The notes beneath the pieces were generated by a model. That model had not been told where the DNA came from, searched no databases, and saw nothing but the letters and a program-made list of their open reading frames with translations. From IMG/VR virus record IMGVR_UViG_3300017917_001151, positions 1-64,000 of that record: 64,000 nucleotides of DNA; one strand, given 5' to 3'. The stretch's first letter is position 1; the number at the start of each line of letters is the position of its first letter. Below, piece by piece: positions 2,673 through 37,482 of the stretch. A program made the position numbers and the translations under genes. The stretch comes from a virus.

Positions 2673-3102
2673 CTTTTAATCCCTTATTAATTTCAGCTGC
2701 AATAACTCGTTGTCGTAATTCGCTGGTTGAAAAATTGTGTTCTCGTTTATTAAAATAAAATTCAATACCGCGTTCAATACATTCCCAACGACCTGTAAAA
2801 TCTTCGTTTTCGTATTCCTGTCCTAGTATTCTAACATTAATAGGATAAGAAAGCAAGATGTTTACAAGATCCTGCTCCGTTTCGTAGACAAGAATTTCGT
2901 CAACATATCTACAGGCTTTGAGCTGTTCATATCTTTCGAAGATACTTTGAACCGGTTTATTTTTAATGCCCGGACGATCAATTGTGGGATCTGTTTGTAG
3001 TCCAACAATTAAATGATCGCATTGAGTTTTTGCTTCTTTGAGCATCATAATATGCCCAGCATGAAACAGATCAAAGGTAGAACAGGTAAATCCTACTTTC
3101 AT
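2656..3102 (-). CDS. cytidylyltransferase (TagD/glycerol-3-phosphate cytidylyltransferase-like)
   Basis: FDLFHAGH (HxGH) motif, LIVGLQTD, C-terminal R..FSTSELR. Confidence 0.88.
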   Translation of the reverse strand: MKVGFTCSTFDLFHAGHIMMLKEAKTQCDHLIVGLQTDPTIDRPGIKNKPVQSIFERYEQLKACRYVDEILVYETEQDLVNILLSYPINVRILGQEYENEDFTGRWECIERGIEFYFNKREHNFSTSELRQRVIAAEINKGLKDGNTT

Positions 3103-30657: not shown

Positions 30658-31194
30658 TTAAACAAATTTTTCCCAATCTCCACCGGGCGCCACTGCCCAG
30701 CCAAGACGTTGGAGATCATTCCGAATCTCGTCGGTGATGCAACCTTCTGGTACTAGATCAACTGCAAGTTCTTCGTCGTAGCTCATACCGCCACGGATGC
30801 CAGAACAGTACCAATCTATATAGTCACCTTCCTGTCGCATGTCTGCGATTATGCCTCCGGCATAGCGCCAAGAGCAACTCCATTCCTCTTGTTTAAGCAC
30901 AGGAATAACTTCCAATCTAATAAATCCGTTATTACACATAGCCGCATATAAGTTTTGGGCATAGATTTCGGACGAACGAACTTTCTCCAAAACCCAATCA
31001 GTGGTTAGGAGATCGTACTCCATATTGTTTATTCTGCTTTCGGGATCATCAAATCTTTGATCGTATTGTTTGAGATGTTTCTCAAACATTTCTAGATAAT
31101 CGGGATTAGGTTCTTCACCTTTTTCTTCGCACCGTTCAACATAACCCTCTTTTTGGAAAGTCATTCTTTCAGGACTCTTGCTGATCTTTTTCAT
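30658..31194 (-). CDS. hypothetical protein (178 aa)
   Basis: YAQNLYAAMCNN...SWRYAGGIIAD...YIDWYCSG; function unknown. Confidence 0.75.
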   Translation of the reverse strand: MKKISKSPERMTFQKEGYVERCEEKGEEPNPDYLEMFEKHLKQYDQRFDDPESRINNMEYDLLTTDWVLEKVRSSEIYAQNLYAAMCNNGFIRLEVIPVLKQEEWSCSWRYAGGIIADMRQEGDYIDWYCSGIRGGMSYDEELAVDLVPEGCITDEIRNDLQRLGWAVAPGGDWEKFV

Positions 31195-31669
31195 GGTCGT
31201 AAGGTTCTACGTTTTCTTCTATAACAGCAGTATCACCGTAGCCGTTGGCATCGACTAGATCGATCTTAACTGGTCCTAGGATAGCCACGTGATCGTCCTC
31301 AATTTCCCAATTGTGGTCTCCGTCGTAGAGCCACGCAGTGCCCCAACGTCCTTCGTCATCTTCCTTTTCGCCACGTAGTATAGCTTCGATATCTTCTTTT
31401 TCTTCTTCTGTAAATCCATCACCGAAGTTTACATAAACACCGCAGAGATCGTCTAGCTCACAGCCCCAACCTACCTGCGGATTACAATGCACACGATCTG
31501 TTTCAGTTTTCCATACAGGTTCGTCTTCTTCTCGGAAGGCCTGTCCCCATCGCCATATTTCAGTTACATCAAAACCTCGAATAGTTCCGTCGGGCATACG
31601 CTCGAATACGTCAACAAAATATTCAACAGATTTCTTTTCTAACGGAGTGATGCGATAGAGCTTTTCCAT
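31169..31669 (-). CDS. acidic hypothetical protein (166 aa)
   Basis: Coupled ORF, Asp/Glu-rich. Confidence 0.75.
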   Translation of the reverse strand: MEKLYRITPLEKKSVEYFVDVFERMPDGTIRGFDVTEIWRWGQAFREEDEPVWKTETDRVHCNPQVGWGCELDDLCGVYVNFGDGFTEEEKEDIEAILRGEKEDDEGRWGTAWLYDGDHNWEIEDDHVAILGPVKIDLVDANGYGDTAVIEENVEPYDHEKDQQES

Positions 31670-32163
31670 TATTCTTCCTTGAATTCTACACAGTTACCAT
31701 CTTCGTCTGCAACAACAATCTTAACTTGATTGCCATCGGCATCTTCAATAACAATAGGACCCCAGCACCAAGCTTCGCTTTCGTCGAGCATCCAACCTTC
31801 TTGGTCTTCTAGGACTTCGTAGGCACCTTCCTCGGCGATGAGTTCCTCTAGACGTTCAATCTCTTCTTCGTCCATATCCTCGGGCCATTCCCAATCTTCC
31901 CAGCAGCCGTCATTCATGCCTTCTAGCTCTGAGCTCTCGATATTTGGTCCAGACAGGCTGTACATATTAACACTGTCTTTCTTACCATCGCCACCTGGAA
32001 CGAATTCGAATTCAAACTCTGGCGGATTATCATCAGTGGTCTCTACATAAAAACTAGCCCAACGGAAACCAGTCTTGCGACGGATAGTCATGCCATCTTT
32101 GACATAGAGCTCGTGTTCTTCACAGGACTTTTTATAGTAGGTTGATACTTTCCAATTAGCCAT
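31669..32163 (-). CDS. acidic hypothetical protein (164 aa)
   Basis: Coupled ORF, very Asp/Glu-rich; weak similarity to neighbour. Confidence 0.75.
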   Translation of the reverse strand: MANWKVSTYYKKSCEEHELYVKDGMTIRRKTGFRWASFYVETTDDNPPEFEFEFVPGGDGKKDSVNMYSLSGPNIESSELEGMNDGCWEDWEWPEDMDEEEIERLEELIAEEGAYEVLEDQEGWMLDESEAWCWGPIVIEDADGNQVKIVVADEDGNCVEFKEE

Positions 32164-32506
32164 TTTTCTTCTCCAGACGTTGTTTACGGAATGCCTTTGA
32201 ATCTTCGATTGCCTTTTTTAAAGTTTCTGCATAGTTAAGAGCTGTCTGCTCGTTCATTGTCAGAACTGTTTCATGCTGTAAGTAACCTTTGGTTAGCAAT
32301 GTCCAAATTTGTTTAAACCGATTTATTGACCACCAAGGGCTTTTTACATCAGCATAAATTGTTACAGTGATGCCTGTGTCCTCTGCTTCTACCCACAGAT
32401 TGTGTGAGTGATCGGGTTGTCCACAATCACATACAACGTGGTAAGACTTGGAATCTCCCCAGTCGTTGCTTTTTAGAATACCTTCTGCAGGTGTTTGCAA
32501 TTTCAT
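32156..32506 (-). CDS. hypothetical protein (116 aa)
   Basis: CDCG..DHSH motif; coupled ORF. Confidence 0.7.
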   Translation of the reverse strand: MKLQTPAEGILKSNDWGDSKSYHVVCDCGQPDHSHNLWVEAEDTGITVTIYADVKSPWWSINRFKQIWTLLTKGYLQHETVLTMNEQTALNYAETLKKAIEDSKAFRKQRLEKKNG

Positions 32507-32766
32507 TGTAGAGTTCTACCTTTTGCGTTTTGTTCTTGTTGATCTAATCGTTCTAACATCTCGATGTCGTCTTCATCGAGATCATCTAGGTCCAGAGGAC
32601 GAGCATTCTTTTGAAACTCGCCGCTTTGAAACATTTCTTTGATCTGTGCAACTAGTTCGTCGAGTTCTTCTTGGGTACCTTCGAAATTGTCAAAGCAACC
32701 GGGAGCGAACTGGATCTTAAGTTCTTTAACTTCGTCTGCTGTAAGGTCTTGTAATTTTTTAGTCAT
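32503..32766 (-). CDS. acidic hypothetical protein (87 aa)
   Basis: FAPGCFDNFEGTQEELDEL; coupled ORF. Confidence 0.7.
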   Translation of the reverse strand: MTKKLQDLTADEVKELKIQFAPGCFDNFEGTQEELDELVAQIKEMFQSGEFQKNARPLDLDDLDEDDIEMLERLDQQEQNAKGRTLQ

Positions 32767-32975
32767 AGTGTTTTTACCTGATCTCGTTTATCGTAGATGC
32801 TTTGGACTATCTTTTGATAATCTTCTTCGTCCATGATTGTTTTATAAAAAGTTAGTCCTTGGATTACTAGGATTGATGCTATTTCTAACGCACTGTGTTC
32901 TTCCAACATAATACGGTTAAAGGCCATATATTTTTCGTATAGGTCTTCTACACCTTTGCCTTCTTCAAACAGCAT
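32763..32975 (-). CDS. hypothetical protein (70 aa; start re-assigned to MLFEEG)
   Basis: Upstream part of the track ORF overlaps a better ORF in another frame. Confidence 0.55.
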   Translation of the reverse strand: MLFEEGKGVEDLYEKYMAFNRIMLEEHSALEIASILVIQGLTFYKTIMDEEDYQKIVQSIYDKRDQVKTL

Positions 32976-33132
32976 CTCTGGTCCTTTGATGTTTATACTC
33001 TCTTTTAAGCCACCACTTAAATTTACTAAAATATTCTTCGTAGGTGTACTTAGGAATATTAGTTTGAAAATGTTCTTCACAATTTTCATACCAAAGTTCT
33101 CGAACCCAAGTTCTAAAAGCAGAAGATTTCAT
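32965..33132 (-). CDS. small Trp/Tyr-rich protein (55 aa; not in ORF track)
   Basis: Hand translation MKSSAFRTWVRELWYENCEEHFQTNIPKYTYEEYFSKFKWWLKREYKHQRTRDAV; starts immediately after the upstream stop. Confidence 0.7.
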   Translation of the reverse strand: MKSSAFRTWVRELWYENCEEHFQTNIPKYTYEEYFSKFKWWLKREYKHQRTRDAV

Positions 33133-33133
33133 T

Positions 33134-33943
33134 TTATGTCCATAGTGATTGACGAACCTTAATAAGACGAATCATCATTTCTTCGTCCTCTTTATCATAT
33201 TGTGCTTCCAACTCACGGCTCTTGTCAAGAGCTGTGCGGCACATTTCGGCTTCTTCTGAAGTCTTATCTTCCATATCTAGAAGATGATAGCCCTTTTCTC
33301 TGCGCATATTGCAGTAGGCAGTCCACCCGCTGGCATCGTGTACATCGGGACGATTTGGATAAACTTCTTTCCACCAAGTGTAGAGTTCTAGGATTTCTCG
33401 GGCAGCTTTGGCCTGATAGGTAGGTTCAGGAGTTTGACCTTCTTCGATAAAGTCTTTGTTGGTCAAAGTCATCGCCCATTTTAAGTGTTCGATGCCTGCT
33501 TCCGGACAACGCCATTGACGATACCAACGGCGCCACCAAGGGTAATTATACTTTTTACGGGCAGCTTCGTCCCAAAGACAGTGATGCCACGCCTGTTCTA
33601 TTTCAACGAATTCAACAAGTTCGTTAAAAAGGCATGGCAGGAATCGATTCCCAACATCGCACCAAGTGCCACGGTGGATATCGCGAGGGTGAGCAGAAAG
33701 ACAATGAGTGCGAGTAATAAAGCGATTGTTGATATAATATCGAACATTATCGATCCTTTCTGGTATCCAACACCAAACGTTTTGGATATAATCCAATCCT
33801 TCTTCAGCCAGCCACCAACGAATGGGGTACTTGGCTTTAGCAGCCTTTTCCCATTCAGACCACTCCTTGCCTGTACCGCACTGAAGCTTAGTGGTGCCGC
33901 GGATCCAATCCGCAAATTTTGAACAAGTCCAATAATTTCTCAT
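33134..33943 (-). CDS. Trp-rich hypothetical protein (269 aa)
   Basis: First ORF after a consensus sigma70 promoter. Confidence 0.8.
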   Translation of the reverse strand: MRNYWTCSKFADWIRGTTKLQCGTGKEWSEWEKAAKAKYPIRWWLAEEGLDYIQNVWCWIPERIDNVRYYINNRFITRTHCLSAHPRDIHRGTWCDVGNRFLPCLFNELVEFVEIEQAWHHCLWDEAARKKYNYPWWRRWYRQWRCPEAGIEHLKWAMTLTNKDFIEEGQTPEPTYQAKAAREILELYTWWKEVYPNRPDVHDASGWTAYCNMRREKGYHLLDMEDKTSEEAEMCRTALDKSRELEAQYDKEDEEMMIRLIKVRQSLWT

Positions 33944-33970
33944 ATAATTTTCTTTCTGTCGAACACTTTA

Positions 33971-33999
33971 ATTATACTAGAAATTTAAAAACCTGTCAA
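33971..33999 (-). promoter_or_regulatory. consensus sigma70 (early) promoter
   Basis: TTGACA-17 bp-TATAAT. Confidence 0.85.
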
Positions 34000-34016
34000 T
34001 ATGATTCAAAAACGAC

Positions 34017-34400
34017 TCAAAATTTTCTTTGGTAGCCTGCTAGATTGAGCATGATTGAATACTGCTCATAGGCTTTTTGGACAGCAGGATTTGTATTACG
34101 ATAGTATGACTCTTCTCGTTCCTTTTCCATTAGGATTTGGAACATATCAACTTCGCCCTGACTGTGCCGTTGCATCCTAAAGAAACGTCGTTCGAGTTCA
34201 ATTAGAGCCCTTAGACGACCTTCAGGGATTTCCATAGTAAACACTCTTTCAGTTTCGTACTCAATAACATCGTTTCTTATGATATCAGCACGTTCTGGAT
34301 CTGTAAAGAACTTAGGAGGATGATACCGTGCCCTACGCTTTTGATCGTTTAGGACACGGACCTCGTAGTTTTCACAAAAATCTTTTAGTTCTTCATTCAT
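34017..34400 (-). CDS. hypothetical protein (127 aa)
   Basis: Coupled to thyX; C-terminal NPAVQKAYEQY. Confidence 0.7.
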   Translation of the reverse strand: MNEELKDFCENYEVRVLNDQKRRARYHPPKFFTDPERADIIRNDVIEYETERVFTMEIPEGRLRALIELERRFFRMQRHSQGEVDMFQILMEKEREESYYRNTNPAVQKAYEQYSIMLNLAGYQRKF

Positions 34401-35079
34401 GTGACACTAGACTTTCCGTCATAGGAAATATAGCAGCGATGGCCTTAGCACAGGCTAGAGCAACTAGCTGATGTTCTTTTTGTGTACCGTTACCTGAACG
34501 TAGTTCAATGAAGTGTACCCACGAACGCAGTGTACCGTTCATATACAGTTTGCTTTCGATATTGCCTTCTGGTAGTACTGAGCGAGCCTGTTCTTTTGCT
34601 ATGCCGTTCGTGACAGCCCAAGTGTAGGCTTCACGAGAGGCTCTAATAACAGCCTGTTGTTTTTCTTCCCATAAACGTGCAAGCTCTCTCTGCTCAGGGT
34701 CTGCCAGGTCCAATTCGACAGAATTCTGTCTGTTTTTTGTGTCCTGCAATCGTGCTTCTCTAGTGACGAAGTTAAGATCTTTTGTAGGGTCAGCGTATCG
34801 TTGACTAAATTCCTGGAAGGAAAAACTTCTGTGTCGAAGAATTTGTCTTGCGATATCTCTGGTGGTGGTGATTTCCACACACGCTGATACCATTTCAAGG
34901 GGGCTCCAGTGGGCGTGTTTGACCAGGTATCGAATAAGTTTCTCTGATGTTTCGGAGTTAAATTGATTGCTTGGATTGCTGACACGGGCGCAGTACGCGA
35001 TGAGTTCCTGTGCATCATCGATGCCCAAGTCTGCAAATTCTTTTGTTGGTTGTGAATAGGATACGAGTCGAACATCCAT
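34393..35079 (-). CDS. thyX: FAD-dependent thymidylate synthase
   Basis: HWSPLE, ThyX motif RQILRHRSFSFQEFSQRY, EQARSVLP, TQKEH. Confidence 0.97.
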   Translation of the reverse strand: MDVRLVSYSQPTKEFADLGIDDAQELIAYCARVSNPSNQFNSETSEKLIRYLVKHAHWSPLEMVSACVEITTTRDIARQILRHRSFSFQEFSQRYADPTKDLNFVTREARLQDTKNRQNSVELDLADPEQRELARLWEEKQQAVIRASREAYTWAVTNGIAKEQARSVLPEGNIESKLYMNGTLRSWVHFIELRSGNGTQKEHQLVALACAKAIAAIFPMTESLVSHE

Positions 35080-35525
35080 TATGATTCCTTTAATATCTTC
35101 ATTAACTTCTCTTTTTCGAGAAGATCTTTTTCTAGCTCTATATATTGTTGCCTAAGTTCTTTAAGTTTTTCCCAACGACCTTCTAGTTCGGGATTGGGTT
35201 TAAGAATGCCTAGACGCTCTTCGATTTTTTCTATAGCTTCGGTTAAACTTTTCCCGCCTATCTTTATATCAGCACCTTCTTTCATAGTCAGTCCGTCAGC
35301 ATCAATATGTACATTAGAAGGTTGATAATATTGACTAGATGTCCAACTAACAGTGCTAGAAGTTCCTGACGATAGTGTATAACCATTAGTAGGTAAGGTC
35401 ACCGAACTAGTCGTCCATGTAGAAGGATCTAAAGTAATAGTATCAACGCCGGCACCACCTATAGAATAACTGGTGCCAGCGCCGTAACCTGAACCAAGAA
35501 CAACTGTGTTGTCTTGATCGGACAT
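35079..35525 (-). CDS. hypothetical protein (Ser/Thr-rich N-terminus, coiled-coil C-terminus)
   Basis: IEERLGILKPNPELE..W..LKEL; start placed at MSDQDN. Confidence 0.7.
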   Translation of the reverse strand: MSDQDNTVVLGSGYGAGTSYSIGGAGVDTITLDPSTWTTSSVTLPTNGYTLSSGTSSTVSWTSSQYYQPSNVHIDADGLTMKEGADIKIGGKSLTEAIEKIEERLGILKPNPELEGRWEKLKELRQQYIELEKDLLEKEKLMKILKES

Positions 35526-35526
35526 A

Positions 35527-35724
35527 TTACTTGCCTGCTGCTTTGGCTTCTTTGCGGGCGTTCTTTTCTTCGGTGATTTCATTACGACGAGCCTTTACTA
35601 GTTTGGCTACCTCTTGTAATGCCTTACGAGCACGAGTACCTGCTGCGCCGTTGCCTGATGTAAATTTAGCATCTTCTGCTAGAAACTCTTCAAACTGTGA
35701 TTTTAATTGTTCTACTGTTGACAT
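35527..35724 (-). CDS. histone H1-like (Hc1-type) small basic protein
   Basis: KF..GN.AAGTRARKAL.E..KL.K..R.EI. Confidence 0.8.
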   Translation of the reverse strand: MSTVEQLKSQFEEFLAEDAKFTSGNGAAGTRARKALQEVAKLVKARRNEITEEKNARKEAKAAGK

Positions 35725-35745
35725 ATATTATTTCCTTATAATAAT

Positions 35746-35857
35746 TGGTGTGGTCGGTAGGTTTCGAACCTACAAAGGCTGCGTCTAAGACTGCGCCCCA
35801 TCACCAGCTTTTCCTTTCGGAAGAAGCGGCAGGTCTGCCAATTCCACTCACGACCAC
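35746..35857 (-). ncRNA. atypical 112-nt tRNA-like RNA (Leu-like D-loop and A discriminator, no canonical anticodon arm)
   Basis: 7-bp acceptor GTGGTCG/CGACCAC plus ACCA; D-loop GGAATTGGCAGA; T-arm GTAGG-TTCGAAA-CCTAC; two extra hairpins in between. Confidence 0.8.
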
Positions 35858-35863
35858 AAGTGT

Positions 35864-35892
35864 ATTATATAACCTTGTTTGTTGAAACACAA
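35864..35892 (-). promoter_or_regulatory. sigma70-type promoter for the tRNA-like RNA
   Basis: TTGTGT-17 bp-TATAAT ending about 6 nt before the RNA 5' end. Confidence 0.65.
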
Positions 35893-35920: not shown

Positions 35921-36901
35921 ATGTCTACCAATTTTCAAGAAATTCCATTTCAAAACATAGTTCGATTTGGTCAACGAACAATGTTAACCAAACCCTTGTT
36001 TGCCGTAAGTTGGATCCTAGGTAGGTTCTGCAACTACAAATGTAGTTATTGTTGGCCATATGCAAGGTCAGACAAACCTGATCACGAAAGTTTAGAAACT
36101 TACAAATCTACTATCAACGAAATCAAAAGACAGGCTAGACAAAATGGATTCACAGAATTCCACTGGAGCTTTAGTGGCGGCGAACCAACCGCTTACAAAC
36201 ATTTAAATGATCTCATCAAACACCTCGACGAACAGGAAAGTCCTTACCAAAGTGTTCACATGACTACTAATTTGAGTCCCGGTAGTAGTTGGTGGAAAAC
36301 ATGGTGTAACAATACTAGCTTATTGCAAAGAAGAAGTATTACTGCTAGTTTTCACGAGGAATTTGCCAAAGAGACAGAGTTTGGAGACAAGTGTCTGCAA
36401 CTGTTAAATGAATATGTACACGTGACTATCAATCAGGTTATGGTTCCGGAAAAATTTTACGAAACATATGAACAGTGCCAACGATTTCATAAGAGGGGTA
36501 TTAATGTTACTCTTAAACCACAAAGTGATCCTACAGCCAGTTTTATTGTAGATGGCTACACAGAAGATATGATTAATCTTATGCAAACAGGATTTCCTCA
36601 GGAATCATTTGGAGAAGAAGTTTATCAAATAGCGTTATACGACACAGAAGGTAGAGAATATTTGTTTGACCAGGCAGAACGATTTAATACTTTTGGATTC
36701 AATAAATTTCAGGAATGGTCTTGTAATTCTGGATATCAAAGTGTTATAATAAGAGGCAACGAAGTTAAGCGTTCTTATAGCTGCCACGATCAGCCGTTAG
36801 GAAATATTTTAACAGGATTTAATTTGTTCGCTGAACCTAAAAAATGTATCACACCTAGTTGTGTTAGTTCAGCAGACAGTAAGATACCAAAATGCAAATA
36901 G
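35921..36901 (+). CDS. radical SAM enzyme with C-terminal twitch/SPASM-like Cys domain (family A)
   Basis: CNYKCSYC, SGGEPT, TTN; C-terminal W.CNSG...C...C...C. Confidence 0.92.
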   Translation: MSTNFQEIPFQNIVRFGQRTMLTKPLFAVSWILGRFCNYKCSYCWPYARSDKPDHESLETYKSTINEIKRQARQNGFTEFHWSFSGGEPTAYKHLNDLIKHLDEQESPYQSVHMTTNLSPGSSWWKTWCNNTSLLQRRSITASFHEEFAKETEFGDKCLQLLNEYVHVTINQVMVPEKFYETYEQCQRFHKRGINVTLKPQSDPTASFIVDGYTEDMINLMQTGFPQESFGEEVYQIALYDTEGREYLFDQAERFNTFGFNKFQEWSCNSGYQSVIIRGNEVKRSYSCHDQPLGNILTGFNLFAEPKKCITPSCVSSADSKIPKCK

Positions 36902-37482
36902 ATACAGAACATTTACATCACTGGATGCAGGCAATACGCCAAAGTCCGGATCCTATGCGTACTATGGACGCATTCTGGTCGGGGCAACTTAAAAGCAAAG
37001 AGTGGTTGATCACAAATCTACGTAAGCACGTTAACAAGTTTGTTACTGTAGATATTCATGGAGGTTGGGTAGGAGTATTGGCTAGTATGCTGTTCCAGAG
37101 CGATGTTCCTATTCTTAATATTCGTAGCATAGACATAGATCCTAATTGCGAACCAATCGCTATCAATATGAACAAGATAGAAGAGATGGTGGGAAAATTT
37201 CAGGCAGTAACATCTGATATGTGTACCGTTAGCAGTAATGCTGATGTTGTTATCAATACTAGCTGCGAACACATAACACAAGAACAATATGATCTATGGC
37301 TGACTGGTCTTCCTCATGATAGGTTATTGGTACTACAGAGCAACAATTATAACATTCCAGAGCACGTTAGAATAGCCAATGACCTAGAAGAATTTAAACA
37401 ACAATGCCATGTTAGTGTGTTATGGGCAGGTGAACTAGAACTACCATTGTATAAGCGGTTTATGATTATAGGAAAAAAATAA
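36892..37482 (+). CDS. class I SAM-dependent methyltransferase-like protein
   Basis: IHGGWVG, SIDID, DM, DVVINTSCEH. Confidence 0.7.
   Translation: MQIDTEHLHHWMQAIRQSPDPMRTMDAFWSGQLKSKEWLITNLRKHVNKFVTVDIHGGWVGVLASMLFQSDVPILNIRSIDIDPNCEPIAINMNKIEEMVGKFQAVTSDMCTVSSNADVVINTSCEHITQEQYDLWLTGLPHDRLLVLQSNNYNIPEHVRIANDLEEFKQQCHVSVLWAGELELPLYKRFMIIGKK

What the first reader, a model, noticed from the sequence alone, without database searches (positions are those of the whole stretch)
35746..35857. tRNA-like RNA with a GAAA-capped hairpin in place of the anticodon arm
Seen: perfect acceptor stem, encoded CCA, canonical T-arm and Leu-type D-loop. The anticodon position holds GCTT(C)TTCC-GAAA-GGAAAAGC, a GNRA tetraloop rather than a 7-nt loop. 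A second hairpin, GGCGCAGTCTTAGACGCAGCC, follows and contains CTTAGAC, resembling a displaced Leu(UAG) anticodon loop. The RNA is 112 nt, has its own sigma70-type promoter and lies back-to-back with the radical SAM island. Known: bacterial LeuRS relies largely on A73 and tertiary structure rather than the anticodon. Inference: an aminoacylatable non-decoding RNA (aminoacyl donor or scaffold for the island), a decoy for anticodon nucleases, or a Y-RNA-like tRNA mimic.
Basis: partly seen in the sequence, partly recalled or inferred. Interest (0 to 1): 0.75.

Follow-up and report, generated by a model that had tools for sequence, protein, structure and literature searches.

The report
Anticodon-less leucine-tRNA mimic of phages
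A giant uncultured freshwater phage makes, from its own strong promoter, a 112-base RNA shaped like a leucine tRNA whose codon-reading loop is replaced by a capped hairpin, so the cell can probably handle it as a tRNA although it cannot translate; its job is still unknown.

Summary
Window 35857..35746 (minus strand) encodes a 112-nt RNA with a 7-bp acceptor stem, A73, encoded CCA, a canonical T arm and a Leu-type D arm. A GAAA-capped, roughly 11-bp helix stands where the anticodon arm should be, and there is a 25-nt extra arm.

It is not a decayed gene. I found it in about 116 IMG/VR phage contigs (69 distinct full-length sequences). Six of seven helices show compensatory changes: 96% and 93% of cells paired in two alignments, and 0 of 500 shuffles reached the observed values. 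A TATAAT box lies exactly 6 nt before G1 in 70 of 78 distinct upstream regions.

No copy has a usable anticodon loop. The best ordinary-tRNA matches to the family model are phage tRNA-Leu genes.

The RNA usually heads the Hc1/ThyX operon but can be separated from it and from the radical SAM island. There is one copy per genome, and some relatives lack it.

Best reading: a trans-acting, non-decoding tRNA-body mimic, possibly chargeable. Its function is unresolved.

Other agents of this scan reported the same family on other genomes. I found no paper describing it.

The parts
35864..35892 (-). Sigma-70-type promoter. The -10 TATAAT lies at 35869..35864, followed by 6 nt (ACACUU) before G1. The -35 TTGTGT lies at 35892..35887 with a 17-nt spacer.
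   Evidence: Sequence. A -10 with at least 5 of 6 matches occurs in 77 of 78 distinct homologous upstream regions, and it lies exactly 6 nt before G1 in 70 of 78. The window's -35 matches only 3 of 6, so the strict scan does not list it.
35746..35857 (-). The whole tRNA-like RNA, 112 nt (RNA position i = 35858 - i)
   Evidence: Model R1 scores it 114.9 bits.
35851..35857 (-). Acceptor stem, 5' strand GUGGUCG (RNA 1-7)
   Evidence: 100% of cells paired; 4 of 7 pairs show changes on both sides in A4 and 3 of 7 in A5.
35831..35850 (-). U8, G9 and the D arm (RNA 8-27). Pairs A10-U27 and G11-C26, and G13-C25 with U12 bulged. Loop GAAUUGGCAGA with G18G19.
   Evidence: U8 in 69 of 69 and GG present in every listed D-arm string. 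The two outer pairs are invariant. The third pair is C-G in the short form. G-C with a bulge in the long form is my reading of the sequences. The D loop matches phage tRNA-Leu.
35803..35830 (-). Arm 2, in the anticodon-arm position (RNA 28-55). A 3-bp base (G28.U55, C29-G54, C30-G53), bulged U52, then an 8-bp helix with bulged C35, capped by the GAAA tetraloop (RNA 40-43).
   Evidence: The base pair covaries (CG 27, GU 7, GC 4) and 5 of 6 hairpin pairs show compensatory changes; 6 of 6 do in A5. Loop classes in 69 distinct sequences: GNRA 22, YCAUA-type 34, CUAG-type 7, others 6.
35800..35802 (-). Linker G56 A57 U58. G56 stands where tRNA position 45 would be.
   Evidence: G in types A and B, A in type C. 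Its role as the 10-25-45 triple is inferred from the standard tRNA fold.
35775..35799 (-). Arm 3, in the variable-arm position (RNA 59-83). A 5-bp outer helix GGGGC/GCCUU, a 3x3 internal loop GCA/GCA, a 3-bp inner helix GUC/GAC and a UUA triloop.
   Evidence: The outer helix has 3 pairs and the inner helix 3 of 3 pairs with changes on both sides, with 100% of cells paired. The apex is Y-N-U-A-R in 69 of 69 distinct sequences.
35757..35774 (-). U84 (tRNA position 48) and the T arm GUAGG-UUCGAAA-CCUAC (RNA 84-101)
   Evidence: U48 in 69 of 69. T loop UUCGAAA in 41, UUCGAAU in 22, other UUCRnnn forms in 6. One T-stem pair shows compensatory change.
35746..35756 (-). Acceptor 3' strand CGACCAC, discriminator A73 (35749) and encoded CCA (35748..35746)
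   Evidence: A73 in 69 of 69; CCA in 67 of 69, with one CAA and one CCG.
35527..35745 (-). A 21-nt spacer with the Shine-Dalgarno AAGGA (35737..35733), then the Hc1 histone-like gene (35724..35527). This is the first gene of the operon that the RNA precedes.
   Evidence: Pfam Hc1, E 2.9e-16. No terminator-like site lies between the RNA and the gene. 67 of 80 Hc1-anchored loci carry a full-length copy of the RNA just upstream on the same strand.

Best explanation
Shown: this is a member of a conserved, phage-only family of non-decoding tRNA-like small RNAs that most likely arose from a class II tRNA-Leu gene of these giant phages. The RNA keeps everything needed to fold into the tRNA L-shape and to present a tRNA 3' end:
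- a 7-bp acceptor stem, A73 and an encoded CCA;
- U8, G18G19 and U48;
- the T loop.
The anticodon stem-loop has become a closed, rod-like helix of about 9-11 bp with an interchangeable cap (GNRA in this window). The variable arm has become a long two-part helix with an invariant N-U-A triloop.

Inferred:
- Host sigma-70 RNA polymerase starts transcription at or next to G1, so no 5' leader has to be removed.
- The 3' end is cut at CCA by the host tRNA 3'-maturation enzymes, which releases a stable, abundant RNA from the front of the Hc1/ThyX transcript.
- The released RNA acts in trans as a tRNA body. It occupies proteins that recognise the acceptor end, elbow and core of a tRNA(Leu)-like molecule (possibly LeuRS, which may charge it) and never enters decoding.
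- I favour a competitor or decoy role early in infection over an amino-acid-carrier role.

Rough odds: real non-decoding tRNA-Leu derivative 0.9; released and trans-acting 0.65; charged by LeuRS 0.4; decoy or titration as the purpose 0.3.
For: Family and structure:
- Two pattern scans and one protein-anchored scan of IMG/VR gave about 116 contigs with the element (counted by hand from the table). There are 69 distinct full-length sequences.
- On 38 distinct sequences, 96.2% of cells pair, 17 of 32 pairs change on both sides, and the covariation score is 0.340 against 0.133 in shuffles (0 of 500 reach it). Slid controls score 0.082 or less.
- The set found through the neighbouring protein rather than through the RNA gives 93.4% paired, 16 of 32 pairs compensatory, and 0 of 500 shuffles.
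- The many G-U pairs fix the strand.

No decoding:
- ARAGORN calls none of the copies.
- By my single-sequence folds of arm 2 of all 69 distinct sequences, the loops are mostly 3-5 nt (GNRA 22, YCAUA-type 34, CUAG-type 7, others 6). The pair closing the loop covaries as a Watson-Crick pair.

TRNA core kept: A73 69 of 69, CCA 67 of 69, U8 69 of 69, U48 69 of 69, T loop UUCRnnn in all.

Leu origin:
- The best ordinary-tRNA hits of model R1 are tRNA-Leu(UAA) at 41.1 and 39.0 bits and tRNA-Leu(UAG) at 34.7 bits.
- The D arm matches phage tRNA-Leu.
- 2 of 69 copies keep CUUAAUU at the tip of arm 2. I read this as a remnant of a Leu(UAA) anticodon loop.

Own gene, not just a leader:
- A -10 box lies 6 nt before G1 in 70 of 78 upstream regions.
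- In L072 and L076 the element sits inside tRNA arrays directly upstream of tRNA-Ser, and in L070 among oxygenase genes, with no Hc1 gene found within those loci.
- There is one copy per record in 5 of 5 records, including a 353-kb genome that is 98% complete and also has three ordinary tRNA-Leu genes.

Accessory: 11 of 80 Hc1 loci lack it, four of them with the same promoter feeding Hc1 directly, and a 95%-complete 335-kb relative has none.

RNA libraries: contigs of relatives in RNA-labelled freshwater and river runs bridge Hc1 and the element (X1 record 1, X3 record 15). One 116-nt contig ends exactly at the CCA (X16 record 10).
Against: - No experiment or raw-read data show the RNA's ends, abundance, charging or partners. 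The runs laid were contigs from RNA-labelled libraries that can contain DNA. Other contigs run on past the CCA (X16 records 11 and 12), so read-through transcripts also exist if these are RNA.
- No terminator separates the RNA from Hc1, and 67 of 80 Hc1 loci have a full-length copy directly upstream. A cis role is therefore not excluded.
- No partner protein was found. There is no class Ia aaRS, Ro/TROVE or CCA-adding enzyme in 5 of 5 phage records.
- The operon proteins have no PHROG hit, and apart from Hc1 and ThyX no Pfam hit. The two sent to the ESM Atlas (269 and 127 aa) matched only unnamed viral clusters.
- The LeuRS identity rules are recalled from the E. coli literature, and the host is unknown.
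- Acceptor-stem similarity to tRNA-Leu is mixed. It is the best match in L076 (11 of 14), but in L072 tRNA-Arg (12 of 14) and tRNA-Lys (11 of 14) beat tRNA-Leu (9 of 14). In G001 the best ordinary hit is tRNA-Tyr at 27.7 bits.
- The decoy idea has no direct support.
Confidence: 0.6

Rival explanations
1. Cis-acting 5' module of the Hc1/ThyX operon. The tRNA-shaped leader stays on, or is clipped off, the mRNA. It serves as a 5' stabiliser or as a processing signal (tRNA punctuation) that sets the mRNA's 5' end. The free RNA itself has no job.
For: 67 of 80 Hc1-anchored loci carry a full-length copy immediately upstream on the same strand. No terminator lies between them. RNA-library contigs bridge the element and Hc1. 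A small conserved hairpin follows the CCA in most relatives.
Against: - The element occurs with no Hc1 gene found in the locus in L070, L072 and L076, inside tRNA arrays in two of them.
- Four relatives use the same promoter for Hc1 without it.
- A stabiliser or cleavage mark would not need A73, CCA, the D arm, U8/U48, or two long arms with conserved length and an invariant triloop.
Confidence: 0.15
2. Dedicated aminoacyl (leucyl) carrier or scaffold for the neighbouring radical SAM / 2OG-oxygenase island. The RNA is charged by host LeuRS and used by an island enzyme for non-ribosomal chemistry.
For: - The element lies back-to-back with the island here and in most relatives.
- In the three loci where it is not next to Hc1 it is still within about 0-6 kb of homologues of island genes: L070 among 2OG oxygenases, and L072 and L076 near radical SAM, PP-loop and oxygenase homologues.
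- A73, CCA and the Leu-type core are kept.
Against: - The island exists without the RNA. L137, L145, L152 and L106 keep the divergent radical SAM gene and Hc1 but have no element.
- Records without an R1 hit still carry radical SAM genes: 11 hits in G005, 7 in G007 and 9 in G009.
- No aminoacyl-tRNA-dependent transferase family was seen among the 20 window proteins and 6 L070 proteins scanned with Pfam, or among the 8 window proteins scanned with NCBIfam.
- The LanB/PEARL domain search was empty but had no positive control.
- The adjacency may simply be conserved synteny around the tRNA array.
Confidence: 0.1
3. A working but unusual decoding tRNA. Candidates: tRNA-Lys(CUU) with a 36-nt intron (relaxed ARAGORN), tRNA-Leu(UAG) read from CUUAGAC, or a CAU anticodon on the arm-2 loop of relatives.
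For: - ARAGORN with introns allowed and the threshold lowered to 80% draws tRNA-Lys(CUU) with a 36-nt intron.
- The window contains CUUAGAC.
- About half of the relatives have C-Y-C-A-U-A-G at the tip of arm 2, which resembles a Met/Ile2 anticodon loop (recalled).
Against: - The intron model's stem and loop letters are not conserved in the homologues.
- CUUAGAC is paired: three covarying pairs plus a triloop.
- In the YCAUA class the closing C-G covaries as a Watson-Crick pair, the position that would be U33 is C in most copies, and the arm is 3-4 bp too long.
- The window's own arm-2 cap is GAAA.
- Default ARAGORN finds nothing in the window, the 20 loci or the 5 loci.
Confidence: 0.02
4. Y-RNA-like tRNA mimic working with a Ro/Rsr-type protein, or a decaying pseudo-tRNA.
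For: The tRNA-like shape lacks an anticodon. One clearly decayed, 5'-truncated copy exists (L131, 49 bits).
Against: - No TROVE gene in 5 of 5 records, with the controls ringing.
- No Rfam hit other than tRNA-Sec at E 0.48 and an RBS-type chance hit.
- The 5' and 3' ends form an acceptor stem with CCA, the opposite topology to YrlA (recalled).
- Decay is excluded by the covariation, the fixed promoter spacing and the roughly 116 contigs.
Confidence: 0.03

Closest known systems
Class II tRNA-Leu of bacteria and phages (within Rfam RF00005), including these phages' own tRNA-Leu(UAA/UAG/CAA) genes
   Same: The 7-bp acceptor stem, A73, encoded CCA, a 3-bp D stem with an AAUUGGYAGA-type loop, U8, U48, the T arm, and a fifth (variable) arm. 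tRNA-Leu gives the best ordinary-tRNA scores with the family model.
   Different: There is no 7-nt anticodon loop and no anticodon. The anticodon arm is a closed helix of about 9-11 bp, and the variable arm is 25 nt with an internal loop and an invariant N-U-A triloop. The gene is solitary, lies 24 kb from the tRNA array in the complete genome, and has its own promoter that starts at G1. ARAGORN and Rfam do not call it.
tRNA-like domain of tmRNA (SsrA)
   Same: A tRNA top half (acceptor, T arm, CCA) without an anticodon, and a long helix where the anticodon arm would be. tmRNA is handled and charged like a tRNA without decoding (recalled; passages of PMC2481249 and PMC3985003 seen in the search listing).
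   Different: The element is 112 nt, has no mRNA-like tag frame and no pseudoknots. Position 3:70 is G-C, not the alanine mark G3.U70 (37 of 38 in A4, 44 of 44 in A5). It has a full D arm. ARAGORN's tmRNA search is negative.
T4 small stable RNAs RNAC and RNAD (species 1 and 2)
   Same: Phage-encoded small stable RNAs linked to the tRNA gene region and still of unknown function (passage of PMC9697503). That they fold in part like tRNAs is recalled, not checked.
   Different: BLASTN of the element against 50,697 phage records found no match. Structures could not be compared here.
Bacterial Y RNAs (YrlA) with Ro/Rsr
   Same: A non-coding RNA with a module that mimics the tRNA D/T-arm elbow (recalled; a passage of PMC7824862 mentions a tRNA-like partner of ROT/TROVE proteins).
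   Different: In YrlA the ends form the Ro-binding stem and the tRNA-like part is internal (recalled). Here the ends form the acceptor stem with CCA. No TROVE gene is present in the phage records.
mascRNA / MHV68 viral tRNA-like RNAs and plant-virus tRNA-like structures
   Same: Non-decoding tRNA shapes that the host's tRNA enzymes recognise. Some are cut out of longer transcripts and some are aminoacylated (recalled).
   Different: Those are eukaryotic systems with unrelated sequences. Plant TLS elements are 3'-terminal pseudoknotted parts of viral genomes. None has this five-helix class II layout.

Membership tests
Canonical tRNA (Rfam RF00005 / ARAGORN cloverleaf) | 7-bp acceptor stem, discriminator base and CCA end | tested here: met
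   100% and 99% of acceptor cells paired. A73 in 69 of 69 and CCA in 67 of 69.
Canonical tRNA (Rfam RF00005 / ARAGORN cloverleaf) | D arm with G18G19, T arm with a UUCRA loop, U8 and the position-48 tertiary base | tested here: met
   U8 69 of 69, U48 69 of 69, T loop UUCRnnn 69 of 69, GG in every listed D-arm string.
Canonical tRNA (Rfam RF00005 / ARAGORN cloverleaf) | 5-bp anticodon stem with a 7-nt loop, U33 and an anticodon | tested here: not met
   Arm 2 has 8-11 bp in 67 of 69 sequences, and its loops are mostly 3-5 nt by single-sequence folds. The closing pair covaries.
Canonical tRNA (Rfam RF00005 / ARAGORN cloverleaf) | Detected by the standard finders at their thresholds | tested here: not met
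   ARAGORN finds 0 in the window and calls no element copy in the 25 loci scanned. Rfam gathering gives 0. The best clan hit is tRNA-Sec at 18.2 bits against 47.
Class II tRNA-Leu | A73 discriminator | tested here: met
   69 of 69.
Class II tRNA-Leu | Leu-type D arm (3-bp stem, AAUUGGYAGA loop) and a long variable arm | tested here: met
   Compared with the phages' own tRNA-Leu genes. tRNA-Leu is the best ordinary hit to R1 in L072, L076 and G003, but tRNA-Tyr is best in G001. Arm 3 is supported by covariation.
Class II tRNA-Leu | Leu anticodon (NAG or NAA) in a 7-nt loop | tested here: not met
   Only a CUUAAUU remnant in 2 of 69 sequences. The window has GAAA.
Class II tRNA-Leu | Leucylation by LeuRS | not testable with these tools
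   Needs an aminoacylation assay. No phage-encoded class Ia synthetase was found.
tRNA-Sec (RF01852) | Family score; 8/5 or 9/4 acceptor/T helices; UCA anticodon | tested here: not met
   18.2 bits against a gathering score of 47. The helices are 7/5, there is no anticodon, and the discriminator is A73.
tmRNA | Tag reading frame, pseudoknots and G3.U70 | tested here: not met
   ARAGORN's tmRNA search is negative. The RNA is 112 nt. Position 3:70 is G-C in 37 of 38 and 44 of 44 sequences.
Y RNA / YrlA | A Ro (TROVE) partner gene, and a Ro-binding stem made by the RNA's two ends | tested here: not met
   No TROVE in 5 of 5 records, with the controls positive. The ends form an acceptor stem plus CCA. 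A host-encoded Ro cannot be excluded.
T4 RNAC/RNAD | Sequence or structure similarity to the T4 RNAs | tested here: inconclusive
   BLASTN against the phage collection found no match. No structural comparison was possible.

The most novel reading that the evidence does not exclude
The RNA is charged with leucine by the host synthetase but is invisible to the ribosome. The phage uses this private pool of aminoacyl-tRNA-like molecules outside translation. One possibility is as the amino-acid carrier for the adjacent radical SAM / 2OG-oxygenase island. The other is as an RNA anti-defence decoy that soaks up host toxins acting on the acceptor or CCA end of class II tRNAs. In either case the invariant N-U-A triloop of arm 3 would be the handle for a dedicated partner.
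Probability: 0.15. Interest if true: 0.9.

Novelty: new variant of a known kind. Interest (0 to 1): 0.7.

Why it matters
Non-decoding tRNA mimics with known jobs are few (tmRNA, Y RNAs, viral TLS elements). This one is a whole class II tRNA body with only the decoding tip removed. It is conserved with clear covariation in more than a hundred giant-phage contigs, it is transcribed from a near-consensus promoter that starts at its first base, and standard tRNA and RNA-family finders miss it.

It would be a clean natural test case for which tRNA functions survive without an anticodon: maturation, charging, EF-Tu binding, and recognition by toxins or modification enzymes. It may also reveal a new way for phages to manipulate or evade tRNA-directed host systems.

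Four full-text searches found no description of it. A 2023 catalogue of candidate viral structured RNAs (PMC10690425) might contain it unnamed in supplements that I could not open.

Tried and rejected
- BLASTN (word 11) of the element with its flanks against 50,697 phage records found no match.
- Rfam at gathering scores found nothing. In permissive mode it gave only tRNA-Sec (E 0.48) and a chance match of the DUF2815 RNA motif to the ribosome-binding-site region.
- Relaxed ARAGORN produced an intron-bearing tRNA-Lys(CUU) model. I rejected it because its stem and loop are not conserved.
- Primer or antisense idea: no second site of 12 nt or more, identical or complementary to any part of the RNA, exists in the 82.8-kb record. 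There is one 11-mer.
- Loop-loop kissing between arms 2 and 3: by inspection of the alignments the two loops do not covary.
- Partner enzymes in G000, G001, G002, G003 and G005: class Ia aaRS, TROVE and the CCA-adding enzyme family are all absent, with positive controls ringing. The LanB/PEARL C-domain search was empty, but nothing rang in the controls either, so it shows nothing.
- The PP-loop protein at 46468-47196 matches only the PP-loop motif of TilS, far below cut-off. It is no evidence of a tRNA link.
- PHROGs gave no hit for 10 of 10 neighbouring proteins. The ESM Atlas gave only unnamed viral clusters.
- Acceptor-stem comparison with co-resident tRNAs gave a mixed answer.
- Cellular genomes: the T arm + acceptor + ACCA pattern had 0 matches in the species-representative genome collection. 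Without CCA there was 1 match, an ordinary 77-nt tRNA in a MAG contig.
- Sequencing runs: 17 RNA-labelled runs held only 2-4 of 50 sampled words, which is too small a share to name a habitat. In the four runs laid, stretches without cover mean nothing, and contigs cannot show RNA ends or levels.
- The strict promoter scan does not list the window's promoter, because the -35 matches only 3 of 6.
- I did not attempt a gene-content comparison of element-bearing and element-free genomes. Only one near-complete genome of each kind was at hand, and almost no gene has an annotation.
- Supplements of PMC10690425 were closed and may list this RNA as an unnamed candidate.
Full report
**What is at the coordinates.** Read on the minus strand from 35857 to 35746, the window encodes a 112-nt RNA. 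Its parts, in order:
- acceptor 5' strand GUGGUCG, then U8 and G9;
- a D arm with the loop GAAUUGGCAGA;
- a long hairpin, GCC-GCUU(C)UUCC-GAAA-GGAAAAGC-(U)-GGU;
- three linker bases;
- a second long arm, GGGGC-GCA-GUC-UUA-GAC-GCA-GCCUU;
- U, then the T arm GUAGG-UUCGAAA-CCUAC;
- acceptor 3' strand CGACCAC, A73 and CCA.

A perfect TATAAT box sits at 35869..35864, 6 nt before G1. The -35 matches only 3 of 6, which is why the strict consensus scan does not list this promoter. That scan also finds no terminator between the RNA and the next gene.

Downstream on the same strand, 21 nt after the CCA, starts a 65-aa Hc1 histone-like protein (Pfam E 2.9e-16). It is followed by an unknown 167-aa protein and ThyX. 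Upstream and divergent begins a run of radical SAM genes.

Default ARAGORN finds no tRNA or tmRNA in the window. Rfam finds nothing at gathering scores, and in permissive mode gives only tRNA-Sec at 18.2 bits, E 0.48. The single-sequence fold is only modestly better than shuffles (z -2.25; 6 of 200 shuffles fold as well). One sequence alone would therefore not settle anything.

**The genome.** The window belongs to an 82,851-base IMG/VR virus record that CheckV rates 23% complete, so it is a fragment of a phage of about 350 kb. The record has ten ordinary tRNA genes at 79-83 kb, far from the element.

**A large family with covariation.** An exact search for the 25 bases from the T loop to the CCA found 46 viral contig stretches. 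A degenerate pattern running from the D loop to the T loop, which leaves the acceptor free, found 61 stretches. Of the 33 new ones, 24 are the same element and 9 are unrelated.

I built covariance model R1 from 22 distinct sequences with a hand-set structure. It scores 71 of 80 sources at 83.9 bits or more. The nine unrelated stretches score nothing, and ordinary tRNAs score 41 bits or less.

On 38 distinct sequences:
- 96.2% of pair cells are standard pairs;
- 17 of 32 pairs show changes on both sides, in 127 cells;
- the covariation score is 0.340 against 0.133 ± 0.007 in shuffles (0 of 500 reach it), and 0.082 or less when partners are slid by 1-3 columns.

Because that alignment was fitted to the model, I repeated the count on an independently found set. 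The best 80 of at least 583 viral contigs that encode a relative of the neighbouring Hc1 protein were searched with R1. This gave 68 matches with 44 distinct rows: 93.4% paired, 16 of 32 pairs compensatory, and 0 of 500 shuffles.

Every helix except the D stem has compensatory changes. In the D stem two pairs never vary. The third is C-G in the short form. In the long form it is, on my reading, G-C with a bulged U.

The many G-U pairs place the structure on the tRNA-sense strand.

Counting contig names, about 116 IMG/VR contigs carry the element. They give 69 distinct full-length sequences of 107-116 nt.

**Anatomy, corrected.** The layout is that of a class II tRNA, with five helices around one core.

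The tRNA core is kept:
- U8 in 69 of 69 and U48 in 69 of 69;
- GG in every D loop;
- T loop UUCRnnn in all;
- A73 in 69 of 69;
- CCA in 67 of 69;
- pair 1:72 is G-C in 52, G-U in 15 and A-U in 2.

Arm 2 stands where the anticodon arm should be. It has a 3-bp base whose first pair covaries (C-G 27, G-U 7, G-C 4), then a 1-3-nt bulge, then a 6-8-bp hairpin, for 8-11 bp in all in 67 of 69 sequences.

Its cap falls into interchangeable classes: GNRA tetraloops in 22 (the window's GAAA is one of these), Y-C-A-U-A-type loops in 34, CUAG-type in 7, UUUUU in 2, and others in 4. No class offers a usable anticodon loop.

The YCAUA class looks like a Met/Ile2 loop (C-U-C-A-U-A-G). However, its closing C-G covaries as a Watson-Crick pair, the would-be position 33 is C in most copies, and the arm is several base pairs too long.

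Two sequences (L076, L132) keep CUUAAUU at the tip of arm 2. I read this as a remnant of a tRNA-Leu(UAA) loop.

Arm 3, in the variable-arm position, has a 5-bp outer helix, a 3x3 purine-rich internal loop, a 3-4-bp inner helix and a triloop. Both helices covary. The apex reads Y-N-U-A-R in 69 of 69 sequences, with U and A invariant and Y pairing with R: CGUAG 20, CUUAG 17, CAUAG 11, CCUAG 10, UAUAA 7, UGUAA 4.

The invariant U-A is the one sequence-specific feature outside the tRNA core. I take it as the likeliest contact point for a partner.

The relaxed-ARAGORN model of tRNA-Lys(CUU) with a 36-nt intron is not conserved in any relative.

**Origin.** Among ordinary tRNAs, R1 scores best on tRNA-Leu(UAA) (41.1 bits in L076, 39.0 in L072) and tRNA-Leu(UAG) (34.7 in G003). 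In G001 the best is tRNA-Tyr at 27.7 bits, ahead of Ser and Leu(CAA).

The D arm is nearly that of the phages' own tRNA-Leu genes.

Acceptor-stem similarity is mixed. tRNA-Leu(UAA) is best in L076 (11 of 14), but tRNA-Arg (12 of 14) and tRNA-Lys (11 of 14) are ahead of tRNA-Leu (9 of 14) in L072.

A duplicated class II tRNA, most likely tRNA-Leu, is the best-supported ancestor.

**A gene in its own right.**
- In 78 distinct upstream regions a -10 box with at least 5 of 6 matches is present in 77. It lies exactly 6 nt before G1 in 70. Transcription therefore most likely starts at or next to G1, and no 5' leader needs removing (inference from the usual sigma-70 start distance).
- There is one copy per record in 5 of 5 larger records, including a 353-kb, 98%-complete genome. 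There the element lies alone at 90 kb, while a 29-gene tRNA array with three tRNA-Leu genes lies at 58-66 kb.
- In the main clade the element always heads the Hc1 / unknown / ThyX operon.
- Of the 80 Hc1-anchored loci, 67 have a full-length copy, one has a 5'-truncated decayed copy behind a terminator (L131), one is cut by the contig end (L154), and 11 have none.
- Four of those 11 (L106, L137, L145, L152) keep the same GGTTATATAAT-type promoter, which feeds Hc1 directly, and also keep the divergent radical SAM gene.
- A 335-kb, 95%-complete relative has no copy anywhere.
- Conversely, in three more distant contigs the element has no Hc1 gene in its locus. In L072 and L076 it lies inside tRNA arrays immediately upstream of tRNA-Ser(GCU), and in L070 among 2OG-Fe(II) oxygenase genes.

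The RNA is therefore an accessory, separable module and not an obligatory part of the Hc1 leader.

**The radical SAM island.** The element is back-to-back with the island in most loci. In L070, L072 and L076 homologues of island genes lie within 0-6 kb of it.

But the island occurs without the RNA. Records without an R1 hit have 11, 7 and 9 radical SAM hits, and L137, L145 and L152 keep the neighbouring radical SAM gene without the element.

No aminoacyl-tRNA-using enzyme family appeared among the proteins I scanned. The link may be synteny around the tRNA array. A functional tie is not excluded, but it is not supported either.

**Expression.** Seventeen RNA-labelled runs hold a few words of the stretch. 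In the four I laid, all as assembled contigs at 85% likeness or more, relatives' contigs cover Hc1 and the element:
- one 568-nt contig spans Hc1 and the whole element and stops about 7 nt upstream of G1;
- another bridges Hc1 and the element's 3' part;
- a 116-nt contig ends exactly at the CCA;
- two others run on past the CCA.

This fits transcription of the region, both as a unit and as a short species. Contigs cannot prove ends, however, and such libraries can contain DNA.

**Partners and relatives.**
- The phage records encode no class Ia synthetase, no Ro/TROVE protein and no CCA-adding enzyme, with positive controls ringing.
- The neighbouring proteins have no PHROG family, and the two sent to the Atlas matched no named cluster.
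- The element is absent from 50,697 deposited phage genomes by BLASTN.
- Its T-arm/acceptor pattern is absent from the species-representative genome collection.
- The nearest cultured phage found through Hc1, Synechococcus phage S-SRM01 (62.7% identity), lacks it.

**How it most likely works.**
Shown: a conserved, single-copy, promoter-driven RNA with a complete tRNA core and 3' end, and no decoding loop.

Inferred: it is made early by host RNA polymerase, freed at the CCA by host tRNA 3'-end enzymes, and folds into an L-shape with two long rods. It then acts in trans on proteins that read the tRNA body. A73, the Leu-type D arm and the invariant core are what E. coli LeuRS is known to need, while the anticodon is not needed (recalled). 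Charging is therefore plausible.

I favour a competitor or decoy function over an amino-acid carrier, for four reasons:
- the RNA is accessory among close relatives;
- it sits behind a near-consensus host-type promoter;
- its non-core tip diversifies freely;
- no dedicated enzyme travels with it.

This is the weakest step of the argument. A pure cis role is less likely, because a stabiliser or cleavage mark would not need A73, CCA, the D arm, or two arms of conserved length with an invariant triloop.

**Comparison and novelty.** The element works like a tRNA body without a decoding function, as do the tRNA-like domain of tmRNA, Y RNAs, mascRNA and viral TLS elements. It fails the defining features of each of those families and of canonical tRNA (see the membership table). 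T4's RNAC and RNAD are the nearest phage precedent and are likewise of unknown function (passage of PMC9697503).

Four full-text searches found no description of this family. For PMC10690425, PMC11662646, PMC9697503 and PMC7824862 I saw only the passages returned by term searches.

Other agents of this scan reported the same family on other genomes, with the same verdict and no function. I reached my reading before seeing their notes and tested it independently.

Noticed in passing
L081:11003-11094 (record G001); also L072:1566-1655 and L083:4305-4396: ARAGORN calls a 90-92-nt tRNA-Ile(UAU) with a long variable arm, a 6-bp anticodon stem, a small D arm and G1.U72. A class II-like isoleucine tRNA is unusual.
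   Followed up: partly
L072:1452-1528, 2447-2523, 2856-2932, 3006-3082: Four tRNA-Leu genes of only 77 nt, that is, without the long variable arm that bacterial-type tRNA-Leu normally has. They sit beside an 87-nt class II tRNA-Leu(UAA) in the same array.
   Followed up: no
Relatives, the 20-70 nt between the element's CCA and the Hc1 start (for example L004, L006, L007, L010); window 35725-35745 is a shorter version: A small hairpin whose stem changes in a compensatory way (UACU/AGUA, CUAC/GUAG, UUCUA/UAGAA), with a conserved AUAAGUA followed by ACAUAAC. It may be an mRNA 5' stabiliser, a protein site, or a T4-late-like promoter box.
   Followed up: partly
window 35718-35745, + strand: A promoter-like site, TTGACA-16-AATAAT (11 of 12), pointing antisense through the element towards the radical SAM genes. 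Its TTGACA is the reverse complement of the conserved Hc1 start codons.
   Followed up: no
L131:2328-2437: A decayed copy of the element. The 5' acceptor strand and half of the D arm are replaced by a terminator-like hairpin and a run of T. It scores only 49 bits.
   Followed up: partly
L073 (about 1070-1215): An unrelated tRNA-like gene whose acceptor and T arm are separated by an insertion of about 100 nt that begins with a hairpin right after the D arm. It could be an intron-bearing or expanded tRNA.
   Followed up: no
window 35527-35724 (-): The Hc1 histone-like protein is very conserved (78-97% identity) and is encoded on at least 583 viral contigs. The closest cultured match is the 'histone H1' of Synechococcus phage S-SRM01 at 62.7%.
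   Followed up: partly
L070:2675-5431: In this distant relative the element is embedded in a row of small 2OG-Fe(II) oxygenase genes followed by two glycosyltransferases. This echoes the oxygenase array at window 47-56 kb.
   Followed up: partly
window 30658-35582 (-) and 36892-37482 (+): Ten of ten neighbouring proteins, including the conserved 167-, 127-, 269- and 196-aa ones, have no PHROG family. Apart from Hc1 and ThyX none has a Pfam family. This phage group is essentially unannotated.
   Followed up: partly
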